Assembly (NCBI RefSeq): GCF_963506605.1
Contig: NC_083288.1
Location: 26,970,001 to 27,034,000 of the forward strand
Source: Zootoca vivipara
Taxonomy: Eukaryota
Direction: 5' to 3'
DNA length: 64,000 bases
Position 1 is the first letter of the stretch; every line of letters starts with the position of its first letter. Positions 45,501-57,800 of the stretch are shown in pieces. The position numbers are program-made.

Positions 45501-48500
45501 CATCGCCATCTGCCACCCACTTACGTACACCATCTTCATGAACAGGAAGCTGTGTACCCAGCTGGTGGCAGCTTCCTGGGCCTGCGGCTTCCTCAATTCA
45601 GTCCTGCACACGGCCATGACCGCTCTCCTGCCCTTCTGTGCCTCTCACAACCTGGACCATTTGTTCTGTGACGTCCCCCAGCTGCTCAAGCTGTCTTGCG
45701 CAGACACATTCCCCAACCAAATCACCTTGCTGGCAGTCACCCTGCTGCTCGGCGTCAGTCCTTTCCTTTGCATTGTGGTTTCCTACGTCCACATCGTGGC
45801 AGCCATCTTGAGGATCCGTACTAACCGAGGCCGCCGCAAGGCGTTCTCCACCTGCACTTCGCACCTCACAGTGGTCACCTTGTTCTATGTCACCTGCATG
45901 TTCAATTATAACAAGCCCAGCGCCAGCCATTCTGTATATTTTGACACCTTGGCAACTGTGCTCTACAACGTTGTGACGCCAATGCTCAACCCTATCATAT
46001 ATTGCCTGAGGAACAAAGAAGTGAAGGACGCCGTGAGGCGTTTGCTGCACCCCAAGACGCCGTCCTCTTTCTAGCACCAGCTATTAGCCAAAATTCCTGA
46101 TTTTGGAGATGACTATAAAGTATATGCTTGCTGTCGACACACACACACAAGGGCTCCAACTTCGGAACAAGCAACTAGACGGGCCACTGGCATGATCCAG
46201 CAAGGATATTCTTGTGCGGTTATGGTTCATGGAACTCCTGTCTACCAGCCTTCAGGTTCACCAACATTACATACCCTCCAACATTTCTCCAACAAAAATA
46301 GGAGAACGTTGATGAAAATAGGAACGTCTTATCAGTATCAGTTGGGAACTCAGCCTTCCTTTGTAGCTGATGACGCTGTAGTCTCTGACTTTCTGTCTTT
46401 GTCACTGCTGGACTCCAGGACTCCATATGCCAATTTGTGTATTATTATAATAATAATTTTATTATTTGTGCCCCGTCCACCTGACTGGATTTCCCCAGCC
46501 ACTCTGGGTGGCTTCGAACACATATAAAAATATAATAAAACATTACACATTAAAAGGCTTCCCTATATAGGGCTGGGAATCAGTGCTTGGTTTGGGATAA
46601 GGGTGGAATGCCATCCTTATTCTCTTCAAGAAGAGGTTTCTTTTCAGTTGAATGTAACAATTCAGACCTAACCTAGCCACACACACACCCACACACCCAC
46701 ACACACCAGTCATCCCACTTCCTCCCAAACCATCCTTTTGTTCTTTTACATTGAACACTGTCCCTAGTGACAAGTTAGATGTAAATAGAGCCCAACAAAA
46801 AGAAGACTTAAGTAGTGTGTGGTTGGAGGACATTGGTGGAAGATTATTTGGCCTTGCCTTGATGCAAGATGGGGTTTACATGTTACCTGTAGCTACTTAT
46901 CCCTGGCAGCAGGGAAGGGTGGTCTCAATGACCAGACACCTCATTTGCAGAACCTTCTTGGTTATAGCTCCCTAGTAATGGAACTTCCTCCAAGGAGGCA
47001 GCGGTTTCCACATACAGGGGTACCTTGGTTTACGAACTTAATCCGTTCCAGAAGTCCGTTCTCAAACCAAAGCGTTCTTAAACCAAGGCGTGCTTTCCCA
47101 TAGCAGCGGGGGACTCAATTTACAAATGGTAAACAGGACTCAACAGGAAGCGGAACATGTTCTGCTTCCAGGGCAAAGTTCACAAACCAAAACACCTACT
47201 TCCGAGTTTGGAGTGTTCATAATCCAAGTTGTTCATAAACTAAGCTGTTCTTAAACCAAGGTACCACTGTAATTAGGTTTTGGGTTGTCTCACCCCTCAC
47301 ATACCCAACCTTGAATTCAAGAACCTGCCTCCCAAAGTCTTTACATTGCTTGATTAAATGGAAAACAAATGCATGGCTTGCCAGTGTGTTGTGTTTGGAC
47401 CAGAGAAACCTGAGTTCCAATCCCGACACTATCATTCCGCTCACAGAGCTATCCTTAGTGAGTCATTCCATGCACCATTAACACCTAAAGATTGCTAAAT
47501 TCTGAGGAATCGTTCGACTTTAAAAACTGTGATTTGGCAGGGGAATTAAAGCAACTCCTCCCTCCAGCTAGTTGTGTTTCAGTCACCATGGTGCTAAGGG
47601 GTCAGAGAAGGTGGCTTAATCAGAGCCCTTCCCTAGAGCAGGAGGAAGGGGCAGTGTGTTTCGATGCCTTCGTTAACTTGTCTGTTATTTTTTCCCAAGG
47701 AAGCTGTTGTTGTTTGTTTGTACATCTGGGGGCAGATGTCTTGCTCTTGTGGGGAGGTAGTATTACGAGTCTGGGGTGGGGGCGAAGCAGGCTGTATGCA
47801 CACTTAACATTCATCTTTATGGCAGCACCATGTTAATTCAACTTGTGCAAATGGTATGAACTGTAATATTATTATTTTTAAAAAAAGAAAAATAATGCAA
47901 AATACAGGGAAAATATGGAATATTAGGAATGAAGGGAAGGGGATCTGGCCTCATTAACCTGAGCTTTACTCAAAGAGTTTGGATGGCGTACACACAAATG
48001 AAATGTGTCAGCGTAACCAAGGCAATTAGATGTACAAAATAAATTCCAAACACACCGAAATGCAGAGTCCAGATTTCAGCATTCAGTATTTCCTGCCAGG
48101 TAATGTGAGATCGCATTGCGCACCTCCTCGCCTCCCGACTCACTGCTGGTTTCGTAAAAATGGCAGTCCTCGTTATATGCTGCCAACAGGACGTGCTCAG
48201 AGATGTCCACACCTTCGGGAACGGCGTGCCCCTTGGTCTCACAAATATTGTGCAGCACGACACACGCAGTGACCACTGCCAAAACGTTCTCCTCTGCCAC
48301 TGGGAGCCTCGCAGTGAGGCAACGCCACCTTGCCTTGAGCCTGCCAAAGGCCTGCTGGACCACGCTGTGGCAGTGGTTGAAAGTCCTATTGTAGATGGTC
48401 TTCCTCTGGTCCAAGGGGCCTCCGTAGGGCTTCATGAGCCACTTCCGCATAGGGTAGGTGCTATGGGCGAGTATTAGAGGTGGGATCTCCACGCCCTGCA

Positions 48501-48851
48501 TGTTGATAGTCGGGTTCCCTGGGACAAAGGTGCCCTCGTCCATAGCCTGGCACAGCGCAGATTTGCGGAAGATCTGCACGTCATCGTGTTTCTTCCCGCT
48601 CCATCCCACTTCGATGTTCGTGAAACGGCCGGTGTGGTCGGTTGTCCCTTGAAGCAGAATGGAACAGAAATTCTTTGGCTTGTTGCACTCGTCTCCTGGA
48701 CCTGTAGCGGCTATTATGGACAGATGCGTCAAGTCCATCGCGCCAACGCAGTGAGGGAATCCCATCTTCCTGAAACCATCCATGATCTGTAAGCGACAAC
48801 GAAGAAGTAGTAAATTTTAAAAGGGTAGTTTCGTGGTTGTGCCAACAATTC

Positions 48852-54800: not shown

Positions 54801-57800
54801 GTGTTTGTGGGGGGGGGGAGTAAGAAAAATTAAAAAAAACCAGGGTTCTGGCTCTTTGGATTAGCGCTGCCCGGGGGGACCAGGCGCCCTTTCCCGCTGC
54901 TGCGCAGCAACTTTCTTCCCAGTTCAGTGGCAACCGCGGCTTGACCTTCCCACTCTCCTCCATCCTAATAAATTGGAAGGGGGGCGGGAGAGATCGAGAT
55001 CAGACCCCACTTCCCCACCACACACTCACTGTTAGGCTTGGATGGAGGCAGGCAGCTGCCTGACCCCCCCCCTTGCTCCTCCTCCAAATCTGCATTGCTC
55101 TTCCGCCTGCGTCTGCAACGCTTGCAAAAGTTATTTCTTTTTTAATGCATTGGGTAAGGATCGCTTGAAGGGATCCGGCACGCCCCCTCCCCACTTCTCT
55201 CATCCCCCAATATCTGGATCCATTTCTCTTTTGGACAGCAGGCAGGCACCCCTTTACCCCGCCCCAGCTCGATAAACGGGATGGCGACAACCCCCCCCCC
55301 CAAAAAAAACAACAACCCGGACAGACGCATCACAGCGGATCCCGTTCAACGCCCCAGAGTGCCGCGGCGAAGGGCGGGTCTTCCGGAGGACCTTTGAAAT
55401 TTGGGCACTTCTCTAACCAAGGCTCGCCTTCGCCTAACCCCGCCGAAGGATTCGCGGGTTCTAGGAGATCCAGGGATTCCCCCCTTTCCTTACCTGCTTT
55501 CCGAGGGAAGTGCGCAAGCGCGATCCCTCCTCCTTCTCCCGAAAGGCGCCGCTTTGCGATCTGCGTGCTTTGCTCAATGAAGGCGTGGGGTGGGGATTCC
55601 TCCGTATGCTCTCCTGCTTAGGGTCGCTGCCGGGGTTCCTTTTTCATTTTCGGTCACCCTCGTACCCTAATTGGATTGCGATCTTCTGAACCGCTTGCCA
55701 ACCTAATCTCATCAAGAGATGTAAACATGATCTAGGCCAGCGATTATTATTATTATTTTTAATTTTTGCAATGCAGATCCTTCGTTCTGGACCAAGCCCT
55801 CTTCAAATGGGGAAGCAAACTGAGAAGGCATTTAGCCGGGACAGGCAGCCTGGTCCACCTAGGCGGGTAGCCTACCTGGTGGTGGTTGTTTTTACCTTGC
55901 TTCACCATTTACTTGTCTGTTACCGGTAGGTTGTTTCAGGTGAACAGAAAACAACAGAAATATTTGAGAAAGTTAACTTTCGGTTTATCTCCCCCCCATT
56001 TTTATTTTAATCAAGAGATTTCACACATGTACAAAAACATATTTGGTACACTTTGACTTGTGAATCTGTGCTGACGAAGAATAGTCGAAACAGGGCCTTG
56101 TCCTGATTTTTACTGAAATTTACCTTTATTTGCCTTCAACATTGGGATTGATTCCCATTTAAACTCCGCATCATATCAATAAAACCTAGTGAAGACTTAT
56201 TCGAAATCCATCTTCTTTTGGCCTGAGTTCTTGCAATTTATCGTTTATTTTTGTTACAAGGGCAGCCTTGCCATTTTTATTTTCTGCTCCCCGGCTCTCA
56301 ACGGGCCCCGCGCGGTGCGCTGCTGCCGGCTCTCACCGGGTCGGGGCTCGGCGCAGCATGCTGTTGCCAGCTCCCGCTCGAAAAAATAAGACATCCCCCG
56401 AAAATAAGCCGTGGTGTGTTTTTTTGGAGGAAAAATAAATATAAGACATGTCTTATTTTAGGAGAAACACGGTAGTTCCACAATCTGGGAGCAGCCAACA
56501 AGAAGGCCCTCTCTTATCTTCACCAAAAGTACCTGTGAATGAGATGGGTCTGAGAGACAGGCTTCCCTGGAATATCTCGAAGCCGAGCAGAATCATATAG
56601 AGAGAGGTGGTCATTCAGATAGCCTGAACTCAAGCTGTATAGGGCTTTGTTAGGTCATAACCAAAGCTTTGAATGGTGCCTGGAAACAGATTGGTAGCCT
56701 GTAGGGTTTTCTGTTCTCCCTTATGGTACTCAATTGAGCATCAAGTTCCTGTGGGATGTAAACAGATGCAGTCAAGTCACAACAGTTCCTAGACCTAGAG
56801 TGTCCACATGGAGGAACACCTGACCAGGTCAGTTTCCTGTTCTTCCACACATGCAAATGAGATGGGAAAGGTGCCAGATAAATTCGCTGGTCAGTAGCCA
56901 TTTTCCCTCTCTTGGACCACACACTTTGAGCAAGCAACATCTTAGTGAGGAGAGAGAGGAAATGGATGTATATACTACTTTTATCTAAGCTAGTCTACCT
57001 CTTGAGTTGTGCTGTATCTCAGGAAGCTTGTAAATAAACTCTTTTTATACTTTTAAAAGAGCACTGTGTCATGTTTTTTCTTTTAAGAGGGATAAAGGGG
57101 GAAATTACCAGGAAATACATACTTTATTCTAGAGGTTTAATGAAACCTGTGCAACCGTTTTCTGCTGTGCATTGAAAGGGAATGTTACTCTGCTAAGTTT
57201 GGAGCTTGCTAACACAAGCTGGGAGAGGATATATTTAATAATATTTCCTCACCCACATTCCTGAACATTCCCACAGTTCCTTGCAGGAAACGGGACTGGT
57301 TGGAGTCATGGCAATGTGGGATGAGTTCAAGGGTGCTGGATTAGCTGTATGTTTAGGACTAGTTGGCCCTATGGGAGGGGGGGGCAACAGTTTCCTCTTC
57401 CCTCTCTTGGAAGCTCCAAACAAGGGTCTCTGATTATGAACATCAGGATCTATTTTTGGATTACAGCAATGCTAGGCGAAAAGGCCAGGAAAGTGTGGAG
57501 TATTTGCTGTGTTATGAAATATCCATCCATAATGTTTGTAAGGTGGAACCTTGAAGTTCTGAAAATTATGTGTGTGTACGTTGAAGGAGGATTGCTTTTA
57601 ACACCCAGACTTAAGTTGATACTGATCTATTGGAAGGGGTGGGGTAGGAAAAATTAGCTTGCATTGTTCTTTTGGGAGATTTGTTTTGATTATTCGTTTC
57701 CTGCTTTCTTTGCTTTTTAAAATCATACCCTTCAAGTAAGGTGCATGACAACTACCCAAATTAACTATTTTAAAAGCTCCCTCATTAACTATAAGAGCAA

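What the first reader, a model, noticed from the sequence alone, without database searches (positions are those of the whole stretch)
48076..55500. Domesticated, catalytically dead Harbinger transposase gene (vertebrate parallel to plant ALP1)
Seen: an uninterrupted 437-aa two-exon ORF with canonical splice sites. The intron has accumulated TE insertions while the CDS stayed open. An acceptor precedes the ATG and a CpG-island donor lies ~4.6 kb upstream. I found no TIRs or Myb/SANT partner ORF in the window. The first catalytic Asp is kept (GAMDLTH). The second is His (ILAHSTYP, codon 48463-48465; family GD/ADxAYP) and the Glu is Gln (VVQQAFG, 48355-48357; family VERAFG). The YxNRKG motif is also degenerate, while structural motifs (AFGRLKARW, ACxxLHN, HTH) are kept. 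Established: Harbinger transposases need a Myb-like partner; HARBI1/NAIF1 is the known vertebrate domestication; plant ALP1 is a Harbinger-derived PRC2 antagonist with a degenerate catalytic triad. Inference: an independent reptile domestication acting as a non-catalytic chromatin adaptor or a dominant-negative transposon repressor. The long Arg-rich leader suggests it is not HARBI1 itself.
Basis: partly seen in the sequence, partly recalled or inferred. Interest (0 to 1): 0.7.

Follow-up and report, generated by a model that had tools for sequence, protein, structure and literature searches.

The report
Domesticated, catalytically dead Harbinger transposase gene
A lizard gene that began as the cutting enzyme of a Harbinger jumping gene has stayed intact across lizards and snakes although its cutting residues are gone; this kind of recruited gene was already reported in a lizard in 2010.

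Summary
On the minus strand, two exons (50869-50267 and 48786-48076) give a 437-codon frame with consensus splice sites. Exon 2 is a Pfam DDE_Tnp_4 (PIF/Harbinger) domain, and the catalytic triad reads D-H-Q. The gene is the annotated "uncharacterized protein LOC114582510" of Podarcis muralis (435 of 437 residues identical).

It belongs to a one-per-species clade of ten squamate proteins (support 100/99) whose branching mirrors the species tree: (Podarcis, Salvator) against Anguimorpha, snakes and Iguania. Nine of the ten lack at least one triad residue, and the replacements differ between lineages. The helix-turn-helix part is the best conserved region. There are no flanking TIRs, no Myb-like ORF and no second copy in the window. 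The reading as a domesticated, non-catalytic gene that is not HARBI1 is therefore well supported.

- All six full-length Toxicofera orthologues scanned carry an N-terminal KRAB box; the window and Salvator do not.
- The Arg-rich leader is an ordinary family feature.
- Lizard Harbinger domestications were already reported (Novick 2010), and a 2025 preprint describes an "endogenized Harbinger" at a squamate antiviral TRIM locus.

Function, expression, synteny and dN/dS could not be tested here.

The parts
55100..55600 (-). CpG-rich stretch holding a candidate non-coding first exon. Its consensus donor CAG|GTAAGG ends the exon at 55494.
   Evidence: Its use is unverified because no transcript data were available.
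50924..51006 (.). Fragment of an interspersed repeat lying directly upstream of exon 1. Other copies lie at 1071-1155 and 16487-16543.
50870..50908 (-). In-frame stretch upstream of the ATG (CSCDFQHRSTPLRS). It is still alignable with the coding linker of the snake and Anolis KRAB-fused orthologues. The acceptor AG lies at 50872-50871.
50267..50869 (-). Exon 1 CDS, 201 codons: N-terminal leader helix plus the helix-turn-helix part.
50633..50869 (-). Leader, residues 1-79: a hydrophobic helix followed by three RRR runs. The model gives one long helix, residues 3-66.
50315..50440 (-). Near-invariant helix-turn-helix block, residues 144-185 (EKRVAIAVWW...EVCFAI).
   Evidence: Weak Pfam HTH_23 match, E 0.021.
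48787..50266 (-). Intron, GT..AG, 1480 nt. It holds (CA)13 at 48852-48877, a repeat at 49842-49969 and a TIR-bounded 273-bp element at 49452-49724.
48076..48786 (-). Exon 2 CDS, 236 codons plus TGA: the DDE_Tnp_4 (RNase-H-like) core and the C-terminal helix.
48733..48735 (-). First catalytic Asp, kept (GAC, D219, in GAMDLTH).
48463..48465 (-). Second catalytic position, His (CAT, H309, in ILAHSTYP). The family consensus is D.
48355..48357 (-). Third catalytic position, Gln (CAG, Q345, in VVQQAFG). The family consensus is E.

Best explanation
This is a host gene, not a transposon. It is a single-copy, vertically inherited descendant of a PIF/Harbinger transposase, shared by lacertoid lizards, anguimorphs, snakes and iguanians.

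It has lost DNA-cleavage chemistry: the triad reads D-H-Q in the window, and different residues are lost in different lineages. It keeps the transposase architecture, namely an N-terminal long helix, a helix-turn-helix part and a folded RNase-H-like core.

Most likely mechanism (inferred, about 0.4): the protein acts as a non-catalytic binding module.
- Its conserved N-terminal helix and helix-turn-helix bind DNA, or bind a Myb/MADF-like partner. In active Harbingers such a partner holds the transposase by its N-terminal end and brings it to the nucleus and to the element's ends.
- The dead core serves as a scaffold.
- In Toxicofera the same protein carries a KRAB box and so would deliver KRAB-type (TRIM28/KAP1) silencing to its targets.
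- The lacertoid form in this window has no KRAB within reach. It would bind the same targets or partner without that effector.

Shown: the frame, the domain, the substituted triad, the orthologue clade, KRAB in the Toxicofera orthologues and its absence here.
Inferred: loss of catalysis, retained binding, repression, and every role of the KRAB-less form.
For: **Domain.** Exon 2 matches DDE_Tnp_4 at E 1.9e-21. Exon 1's nearest Atlas clusters partly carry PF26138 DUF8040, on 14-22% of members, score 0.95-0.96. This is a lead only.

**Orthologues.**
- The exon 2 search gives P. muralis LOC114582510 at 99%, then Salvator 67%, Elgaria 63%, Varanus 63%, Liasis 62%, Candoia 61%, Pogona 58%, Sceloporus 54% and Anolis 51-52%.
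- The exon 1 search returns the same set (60-76% identity, E 1e-63 to 1e-94; the partial Varanus entry P0116 at 2e-54). It then drops to 47-48%.
- In the careful ML tree (70 rows, 306 columns) these ten form a clade at 100/99. (Podarcis, Salvator) has 100/94 and the Toxicofera members 98/90, with one sequence per species.

**Triad by lineage.** Podarcis DHQ; Salvator DNT; Elgaria, Varanus and Pogona DDG; Liasis DTE; Candoia DTK; both Anolis GDE; Sceloporus DDE.

**Constraint.**
- Of 76 sites conserved at 85% or more in the 60 other relatives, 59 are kept at 90% or more in the clade. The catalytic Glu is among the 9 relaxed sites.
- Identity by region within the clade: helix-turn-helix part 70-84%, DDE core 58-70%, leader 41-68%, C-tail 31-58%.
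- In a substitution-only neutral simulation, both exons stay open in 2e-3 of runs at 28% amino-acid divergence and in 3.7e-4 at 35%.

**Lost transposon hallmarks.** There are no flanking TIRs, no Myb-like ORF and no second copy in the window.

**Structure.** The AF2 model of the database orthologue has pLDDT 88.4 and pTM 0.78, with an ordered helical N-terminal half and a beta-sheet core.

**KRAB.** A KRAB box is found at E 1e-18 to 1e-21 in 6 of 6 full-length Toxicofera orthologues scanned, and in neither Podarcis nor Salvator.

**Role of the N-terminal end.** It binds the Myb-like partner in active Harbingers (PMC9392472, passages).
Against: - No orthologue DNA was within reach, so no dN/dS could be computed and synteny could not be checked.
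- No transcript data were available, so expression and the 5' exon are unverified.
- The orthologues are gene models, which favour open frames.
- KRAB absence is shown only for the 13 kb upstream that the window holds. That stretch includes a 128-nt N run, which I left alone. A coding exon further upstream spliced to the acceptor at 50870 is not excluded.
- The Sceloporus member keeps D-D-E, so the common ancestor may still have been catalytic.
- No member from geckos or skinks was found, so the age rests on the Lacertoidea-Toxicofera split alone.
- The fold search found no solved structure at E <= 0.001. Only weak matches to integrases and DDE transposases appeared.
- Nothing here bears directly on what the protein binds.
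Confidence: 0.85

Rival explanations
1. The Podarcis gene is still a full KRAB-Harbinger fusion like its Toxicofera orthologues. Its KRAB exons would lie beyond the window, or in the N run, and would be missing from the annotation.
For: - The 13 codons upstream of the ATG are still alignable with the coding linker of snakes and Anolis (SCDFQ...).
- Salvator's upstream sequence aligns with the Pogona linker.
- A good acceptor sits right before the ATG.
- The window ends 13 kb upstream.
Against: - An in-frame stop lies 34 codons upstream of the ATG.
- An interspersed repeat occupies 50924-51006.
- tblastn with 9 full relatives (E<=1) and with 13 N-terminal parts (E<=50) finds no KRAB on the minus strand.
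- Pfam finds none in the ORFs upstream.
- The database models for Podarcis (437 aa) and Salvator (484 aa) hold no KRAB.
Confidence: 0.1
2. It is an old, dead transposon copy or a decaying pseudogene whose frame is open by chance or through recent inactivation.
For: - The catalytic residues are lost.
- The intron and flanks hold repeats.
- No expression data exist.
Against: - The 437 codons are open.
- Orthologues are open in ten species, and their tree mirrors the species tree.
- The neutral simulation keeps the frame open in at most 2e-3 of runs at the observed divergence, even for one pair.
- Conservation is strongly uneven, with a near-invariant helix-turn-helix block.
Confidence: 0.03
3. 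It is still an active nuclease or transposase that uses a non-canonical metal-binding set (Asp, His, Gln).
For: - His can bind metal in some RNase-H-like enzymes (recalled, not tested).
- The first Asp and the fold are kept.
Against: - The replacements are not shared: N/T, T/E, T/K and D/G at the same two columns, and G at the first Asp in Anolis. No alternative catalytic set is conserved.
- There are no TIRs, no partner ORF and no extra copies in the window.
Confidence: 0.04
4. It is the squamate orthologue of HARBI1.
For: Automatic names such as 'putative nuclease HARBI1' appear on several relatives.
Against: - Those names sit on multi-copy gecko and turtle sequences.
- The clade holds only squamates and is nested among sauropsid Harbinger sequences.
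- No named hit is from a bird or a mammal. HARBI1 is reported in all jawed vertebrates and dated to about 500 Mya (PMC9392472, passages).
- No named HARBI1 reference was at hand, so HARBI1 itself is not in my tree.
Confidence: 0.01

Closest known systems
The five TIR-less PIF/Harbinger transposase ORFs of Anolis carolinensis (Novick et al. 2010, PMC3014272; passages read)
   Same: - Lizard genes of 442-466 aa with Harbinger transposase motifs.
- No TIRs or TTA/TAA duplications.
- Read by the authors as domestications of extinct Harbingers.
- The Anolis member of my clade (LOC103280956) is probably one of them or close kin. This is an inference.
   Different: - That paper says most diagnostic motifs are conserved.
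- In the passages I read it reports neither orthologues in other squamates, nor KRAB fusion, nor loss of the triad.
- The Podarcis gene itself is not treated there.
Host-transposase fusion genes, KRAB-transposase type (Cosby et al., bioRxiv 10.1101/2020.05.07.082677; section 4 and word searches read)
   Same: The Toxicofera orthologues are KRAB box plus transposase in one frame. That is the architecture that paper surveys across tetrapods, including anole, python, bearded dragon and a lacertid.
   Different: - The window's gene has no KRAB.
- The main text of the preprint never names Harbinger.
- Whether this family is in its Table S3 could not be seen, because supplements are closed.
The 'endogenized and transcriptionally active Harbinger' anchoring the squamate harbingerTRIM locus (Boys, Quinlan, Elde; PMC12262214 and v2 10.1101/2025.06.23.661133; abstract, passages and legends read)
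   Same: - A Harbinger-derived element kept at one locus in 13 squamates, including a lacertid, for about 200 Myr, among PRY-SPRY genes.
- The window holds a PYRIN exon and a PRY-SPRY exon 28-33 kb from the gene.
- This gene's cluster is the only lacertid protein among my listed hits.
   Different: - Identity is not shown. The text I could read gives no accession or sequence, and fig. S3 is closed.
- Their element is also in the leopard gecko, whereas my clade has no gecko member. Joining it to the gecko KRAB clade is rejected (p-AU 2.4e-12).
HARBI1 (with NAIF1)
   Same: A vertebrate gene derived from a Harbinger transposase. Its partner is a Myb-like derived protein that imports it into the nucleus (PMC9392472, passages).
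   Different: - HARBI1 dates to the base of jawed vertebrates and is present in mammals (same source).
- This gene is squamate-only, arose separately and has a degenerate triad.
Plant ALP1/ALP2
   Same: A Harbinger transposase-derived gene with substituted triad residues (DGA for DDE), single-copy and immobile (PMC4671723, passages).
   Different: - Different kingdom and an independent event.
- ALP1's PRC2 association is experimental. Nothing links the lizard gene to PRC2.
- The KRAB in its orthologues points to another pathway.
Insect PIF-like domesticated genes (DPLG, APLG, LPLG, BPLG; Markova et al. 2022, PMC9710019; abstract and passages)
   Same: Recurrent domestication of PIF transposases, judged there by synteny, purifying selection and lost transposon hallmarks. 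Some cases are transposase-only.
   Different: - Many insect cases are co-domesticated with an adjacent MADF gene. No such gene lies in this window.
- There is no KRAB in insects.

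Membership tests
PIF/Harbinger transposase superfamily (protein homology) | DDE_Tnp_4 catalytic-core domain above Pfam's gathering score | tested here: met
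   Exon 2: E 1.9e-21, 76.7 bits against a cut-off of 24.8. Plant_tran also matches at 4.4e-10.
PIF/Harbinger transposase superfamily (protein homology) | N-terminal helix-turn-helix part of the transposase | tested here: inconclusive
   Pfam gives only HTH_23 at E 0.021, below its cut-off. The Atlas neighbours partly carry DUF8040. The model shows helices 94-208 at high pLDDT. The block is near-invariant in orthologues.
Active Harbinger transposon | Intact D-D-E triad | tested here: not met
   D219, H309, Q345.
Active Harbinger transposon | Terminal inverted repeats with TWA target duplications around the coding part | tested here: not met
   None of the 25 listed inverted-repeat pairs (58 found) in 46500-57000 brackets the gene.
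Active Harbinger transposon | Second ORF for a Myb/SANT/MADF-like protein next to the transposase | tested here: not met
   No such Pfam match in 113 ORFs of 90 aa or more (whole window) or in 150 of 164 ORFs of 45-89 aa (46.3-62.1 kb).
Active Harbinger transposon | Many similar copies in the genome | not testable with these tools
   Only the window was at hand, and it holds one copy. The database cluster of the Podarcis protein was seen on 1 contig.
Domesticated transposase gene | One orthologue per species, with a gene tree that follows the species tree | tested here: met
   Ten-row clade at 100/99, lacertoids against Toxicofera. The same set is recovered with exon 1 alone.
Domesticated transposase gene | Same genomic position in distant species (synteny) | not testable with these tools
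   No squamate genome collection is offered. One hint only: a Varanus model stops at the same exon boundary (...DYQK|VS).
Domesticated transposase gene | Purifying selection (dN/dS below 1) | not testable with these tools
   No orthologue DNA was available. Proxies only: the open-frame simulation, uneven conservation.
Domesticated transposase gene | Transcription | not testable with these tools
   No transcript data. The splice signals and a CpG-rich candidate promoter are only consistent with it.
HARBI1 orthologues | Closest kin are the single-copy HARBI1 genes found throughout jawed vertebrates, mammals and birds included | tested here: not met
   The clade and its sister groups are squamate only. 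No named hit or 46 is avian or mammalian. A reference HARBI1 was not in the tree.
KRAB-transposase fusion genes | KRAB box in frame with the transposase | tested here: not met
   None in the window, nor in the Podarcis and Salvator proteins. It is present in 6 of 6 Toxicofera orthologues scanned.
ALP1-like PRC2 accessory proteins | Association with Polycomb Repressive Complex 2 | not testable with these tools
   This needs an experiment. The name 'ALP1-like' on some relatives is automatic.

The most novel reading that the evidence does not exclude
This gene is the 'endogenized Harbinger' that anchors the squamate PRY-SPRY/TRIM antiviral locus. Its ancestor was a KRAB-Harbinger repressor aimed, through its helix-turn-helix or a Myb-like partner, at Harbinger-derived sequences in that neighbourhood. 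Lacertoids then lost the KRAB exons, which turned a silencer into a KRAB-less competitor that occupies the same sites without silencing them. This would be a natural switch from repressor to anti-repressor, functionally parallel to plant ALP1.
Probability: 0.1. Interest if true: 0.7.

Novelty: new member of a known kind. Interest (0 to 1): 0.4.

Why it matters
Outside the fusion survey, vertebrate accounts of Harbinger-derived genes name a single transposase-derived gene, HARBI1 (PMC9392472, passages). The Anolis report of 2010 has had little follow-up in the text I could search.

This locus offers a clean natural series:
- One orthologue group is kept across lacertoids, anguimorphs, snakes and iguanians.
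- Every lineage except Sceloporus has lost a different part of the active site, while the helix-turn-helix part stays near-invariant.
- One half of the clade carries a KRAB box and the other half does not.

That makes two questions directly testable: what a transposase body is kept for once cutting is gone, and what happens when a KRAB effector is removed from such a protein. If the gene is also the Harbinger of the harbingerTRIM locus, it may bear on how that antiviral gene cluster is regulated or reshuffled.

Tried and rejected
- **Cluster members.** That question stayed open.
- **Sequence search of solved structures.** Exon 2 gave 0 matches at E<=1.
- **Fold search.** The AF2 model against the PDB gave 0 matches at E<=0.001. 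The weak list (E 0.01-0.1, TM 0.1-0.36) is dominated by retroviral integrases and DDE transposases (ISCth4, Mos1, piggyBac, Metnase). I take it only as consistent with an RNase-H-like fold.
- **KRAB remnant.** The only stray hit is on the plus strand at 62049-62225 (31% identity, E 0.007 under relaxed scoring). I rejected it as wrong strand and probably chance.
- **Single ancient KRAB fusion shared with geckos.** Outside the KRAB box the linkers align only weakly. The AU test rejects a joint clade (p 2.4e-12). That group was named after I had seen the tree.
- **Rfam.** Two weak tRNA-like hits elsewhere in the window, and nothing in the gene.
- **Supplements.** They are closed, so Cosby Table S3 and Boys fig. 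S3 were not seen.
- **Joined translation.** Searches went exon by exon.

Full report
**What is in the sequence**

On the minus strand there are two long open frames, 50968..50207 and 48816..48076. Read with the sequence itself:
- The ATG lies at 50869-50867, with A at -3 and G at +4.
- Exon 1 ends at 50267 before GTAAAG.
- Exon 2 starts at 48786 after a pyrimidine-rich CGCTTACAG.
- TGA lies at 48078-48076.

That gives 201 + 236 = 437 codons. I did not build the joined translation. Every search was made exon by exon. Where a full-length sequence was needed I used the database record P0003.

An acceptor (CCTTTGCGCAG) ends two bases before the ATG. A consensus donor (CAG|GTAAGG) lies at 55494 inside a CpG-rich stretch. 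Nothing here can show whether that donor is used. The only AATAAA downstream of the stop is 1.6 kb away, at 46463.

**What family it is**

- Exon 2 matches Pfam DDE_Tnp_4 at E 1.9e-21, well above the cut-off.
- Exon 1 has only a sub-threshold HTH_23 match. Its nearest Atlas clusters partly carry DUF8040 (a lead only).
- Against 1.84 billion cluster representatives, exon 2 has 8215 relatives at E<=0.001, 2144 at 1e-10 and 72 at 1e-30.
- In a 71-row alignment the family consensus at the three catalytic columns is D, D, E. The window reads D, H, Q, and the NRKG motif reads NKPKN. AFGRLKARW and ACVVLHN are kept.

**Whose gene it is**

I take the window for lizard DNA, not human.
- The best hit is 'uncharacterized protein LOC114582510 [Podarcis muralis]', 437 aa. 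It is identical over exon 1 and differs at two residues in exon 2.
- The next hits are single proteins from Salvator (67%), Elgaria and Varanus (63%), Liasis (62%), Candoia (61%), Pogona (58%), Sceloporus (54%) and two Anolis species (51-52%).
- Exon 1 alone recovers the same set at 60-76% identity. It then falls to 47-48%.
- A careful maximum-likelihood tree was built from 70 rows and 306 columns. I chose the rows from the named hits plus a few outgroups, and many gecko and turtle duplicates were left out.
- In that tree these ten form one clade with support 100/99. (Podarcis, Salvator) has 100/94. Snakes, anguimorphs and iguanians sit together at 98/90.
- That is one sequence per species, and the branching follows the accepted species tree. 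The split of Lacertoidea from Toxicofera is well over 100 million years old; that figure is recalled. Boys et al. put the origin of squamates at 200-250 Myr.
- A Varanus model ends at ...DYQK followed by VS, the same exon boundary as here.

**Is it a gene or a transposon?**

- No inverted repeat brackets it.
- No Myb/SANT/MADF domain is found in 113 ORFs of 90 aa or more, or in 150 of 164 ORFs of 45-89 aa.
- tblastn with nine relatives hits only these two exons in the window.
- A substitution-only neutral simulation keeps both exons open in 2e-3 of runs at 28% amino-acid divergence and in 3.7e-4 at 35%. The observed Podarcis-Salvator divergence is about 30%. Indels would lower these figures further.
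- Conservation is uneven in the way selection produces. The helix-turn-helix part is 70-84% identical between clade members, the DDE core 58-70%, the leader 41-68% and the C-tail 31-58%. One 42-residue block, 50315-50440, is almost invariant.
- dN/dS, synteny and expression could not be tested with the tools offered.

**Loss of catalysis**

Within the clade the triad reads as follows:
- DHQ in Podarcis
- DNT in Salvator
- DDG in Elgaria, Varanus and Pogona
- DTE in Liasis
- DTK in Candoia
- GDE in both Anolis
- DDE in Sceloporus

Nine of ten rows lack at least one residue, and the replacements differ. The ancestor may still have had D-D-E, with the constraint on these columns lifted afterwards. 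Of 76 sites conserved at 85% or more in the 60 other relatives, 59 are kept at 90% or more in the clade. The catalytic Glu is one of the 9 relaxed sites. That these changes abolish cleavage follows from the established role of the DDE triad in metal binding. The same argument is made for ALP1, which reads DGA (PMC4671723, passages). It is an inference, not a measurement.

**Structure**

AlphaFold2 was run on P0003 with a 69-row alignment. It gave pLDDT 88.4 and pTM 0.78:
- one long N-terminal helix, residues 3-66;
- a helical region, residues 94-208;
- a beta-sheet core starting at 214, with long helices at 328-354 and 366-385;
- a C-terminal helix, residues 414-436.

No solved structure matches at E<=0.001. 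The weak list is mostly integrases and DDE transposases.

1. All six full-length Toxicofera orthologues that I scanned carry a KRAB box at the N-terminus (E 1e-18 to 1e-21). Podarcis and Salvator do not. The precomputed list for the Sceloporus member also shows KRAB.
   - In the window, tblastn with whole relatives (E<=1) and with 13 N-terminal parts (E<=50) finds no KRAB on the gene's strand in the 13 kb upstream. Pfam finds none either.
   - An interspersed repeat sits at 50924-51006, right upstream of exon 1.
   - The 13 codons before the ATG still align with the coding linker of snakes and Anolis. Salvator's upstream sequence aligns with the Pogona linker.
   - I read this as a hint that lacertoids lost the KRAB exons. 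Gain in Toxicofera is not excluded.
2. The Arg-rich leader is not special. A hydrophobic helix followed by Arg runs is present in turtle, alligator, fish, sea-urchin and amphioxus relatives.
3. The wider family is full of such events. 17 of 69 rows carry KRAB or SCAN, with at least 8 changes on the tree. 28 of 70 rows lack an intact triad, with at least 13 changes. Joining the gecko KRAB clade to this clade is rejected (p-AU 2.4e-12; the group was named after I had seen the tree).

**How it most likely works**

In active Harbingers a Myb-like protein holds the transposase by its N-terminal end, imports it into the nucleus and brings it to the element's ends (PMC9392472, passages). Here the N-terminal helix and the helix-turn-helix part are the best kept regions, and the cutting residues are free to vary.

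My best reading (about 0.4) has three parts:
- The protein is a non-catalytic binding module, directed either by its own helix-turn-helix or by a Myb-like partner. The folded core serves as a scaffold.
- In Toxicofera it would deliver KRAB-type silencing. The KRAB-TRIM28 link is established knowledge, recalled here.
- In lacertoids it would bind without that effector.

A dominant-negative action on Harbinger transposons is possible (about 0.1). It has no support beyond analogy.

**Prior work**

- Novick et al. 2010 found five Harbinger transposase ORFs of 442-466 aa in Anolis. They lack TIRs and target duplications, and the authors called them likely domestications (PMC3014272, passages).
- Cosby et al. 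surveyed KRAB- and other host-transposase fusions in tetrapods, lizards and python included. The main text of the preprint never mentions Harbinger. Its Table S3 could not be seen.
- The window has a PYRIN exon (15897-16193) and a PRY-SPRY exon (19670-20218) on the plus strand, 28-33 kb from the gene. This gene's cluster is the only lacertid entry among my listed hits.
- Identity with their element is therefore plausible, by my estimate about even odds. It is unproven. The text gives no accession, their element is also in geckos, and fig. S3 is closed.
- Three full-text searches found no paper on a squamate KRAB-Harbinger gene as such.

**Verdict**

The interpretation as a domesticated, catalytically dead, non-HARBI1 Harbinger gene is supported. 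The proposed functions are untested. The kind of thing is already known in lizards, so this is a new, well-delimited member of a known kind. The new details are the lineage-by-lineage decay of the active site and the contrast between KRAB-bearing and KRAB-less orthologues.

Noticed in passing
window 24003-24977 (-), 35416-36432 (+), 39358-40374 (+), 45103-46071 (+): Four intact olfactory-receptor ORFs (7tm_4, E 1e-53 to 1e-55). The gene sits inside an OR cluster.
   Followed up: partly
window about 32570-37140 and 37000-41770: A tandem duplication block, 92-96.5% identical, carries the two OR genes at 35.4 and 39.4 kb.
   Followed up: partly
window 59793-60708 (+): An olfactory-receptor pseudogene. 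Its 7tm_4 pieces lie in three different frames: 59793-60149, 59858-60559 and 60481-60708.
   Followed up: partly
window 15897-16193 (+) and 19670-20218 (+): A PYRIN-domain exon (E 4e-26) is followed by a PRY+SPRY exon (E 1e-22 and 4e-14). It is probably one pyrin-like or PRY-SPRY gene. This matters for the possible link to the harbingerTRIM locus.
   Followed up: partly
window 8682-8978 (+) and 10014-10838 (+): A THAP-domain exon (E 5e-8) and a 275-aa GC-rich open frame 1 kb downstream with no Pfam match. They may belong to one gene.
   Followed up: no
window 49452-49724 and 47013-47271: Two elements of about 260-270 bp are bounded by 25-27-nt inverted ends that begin TACAG(T/G)GGT. One lies in the intron and one downstream of the gene. 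They look like Tc1/mariner-type MITEs rather than Harbinger ones; that typing rests on recall.
   Followed up: no
window 51203-51296, 52634-52743, 56383-56475: Copies, in both orientations, of one short interspersed repeat lie between exon 1 and the CpG-rich stretch and just beyond it.
   Followed up: no
window 4100-4700, 20500-20900, 28100-28500, 62600-62800: Further CpG-rich stretches (observed/expected 0.64-1.03), possibly promoters of neighbouring genes.
   Followed up: no
window 62049-62225 (+): A stray, weak KRAB-like tblastn match to the Pogona N-terminus (31% identity, E 0.007 under relaxed scoring). It lies on the opposite strand to the gene and is probably chance.
   Followed up: partly
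window 28663-28956 (+): A sub-threshold Pfam match to the EED insertion domain (E 2.6e-5, 24.7 bits against a cut-off of 27) next to a very GC-rich stretch.
   Followed up: no
relatives P0026, P0028, P0031, P0039 (geckos): A second one-per-species clade (100/100) of about 450-aa gecko proteins has Gly at the first Asp and a lost second Asp. It looks like a separate domestication.
   Followed up: partly
relatives P0016, P0040, P0060: Python, Anolis and Sceloporus proteins combine a SCAN box, with or without KRAB, with a Harbinger core in other branches of the same tree.
   Followed up: no
window 62481-62608: A run of 128 N. I left it as it is.
   Followed up: no
window 44894-44961 (-) and 36604-36662 (-): Two weak tRNA-like Rfam matches just above the gathering score, possibly SINE heads.
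   Followed up: no
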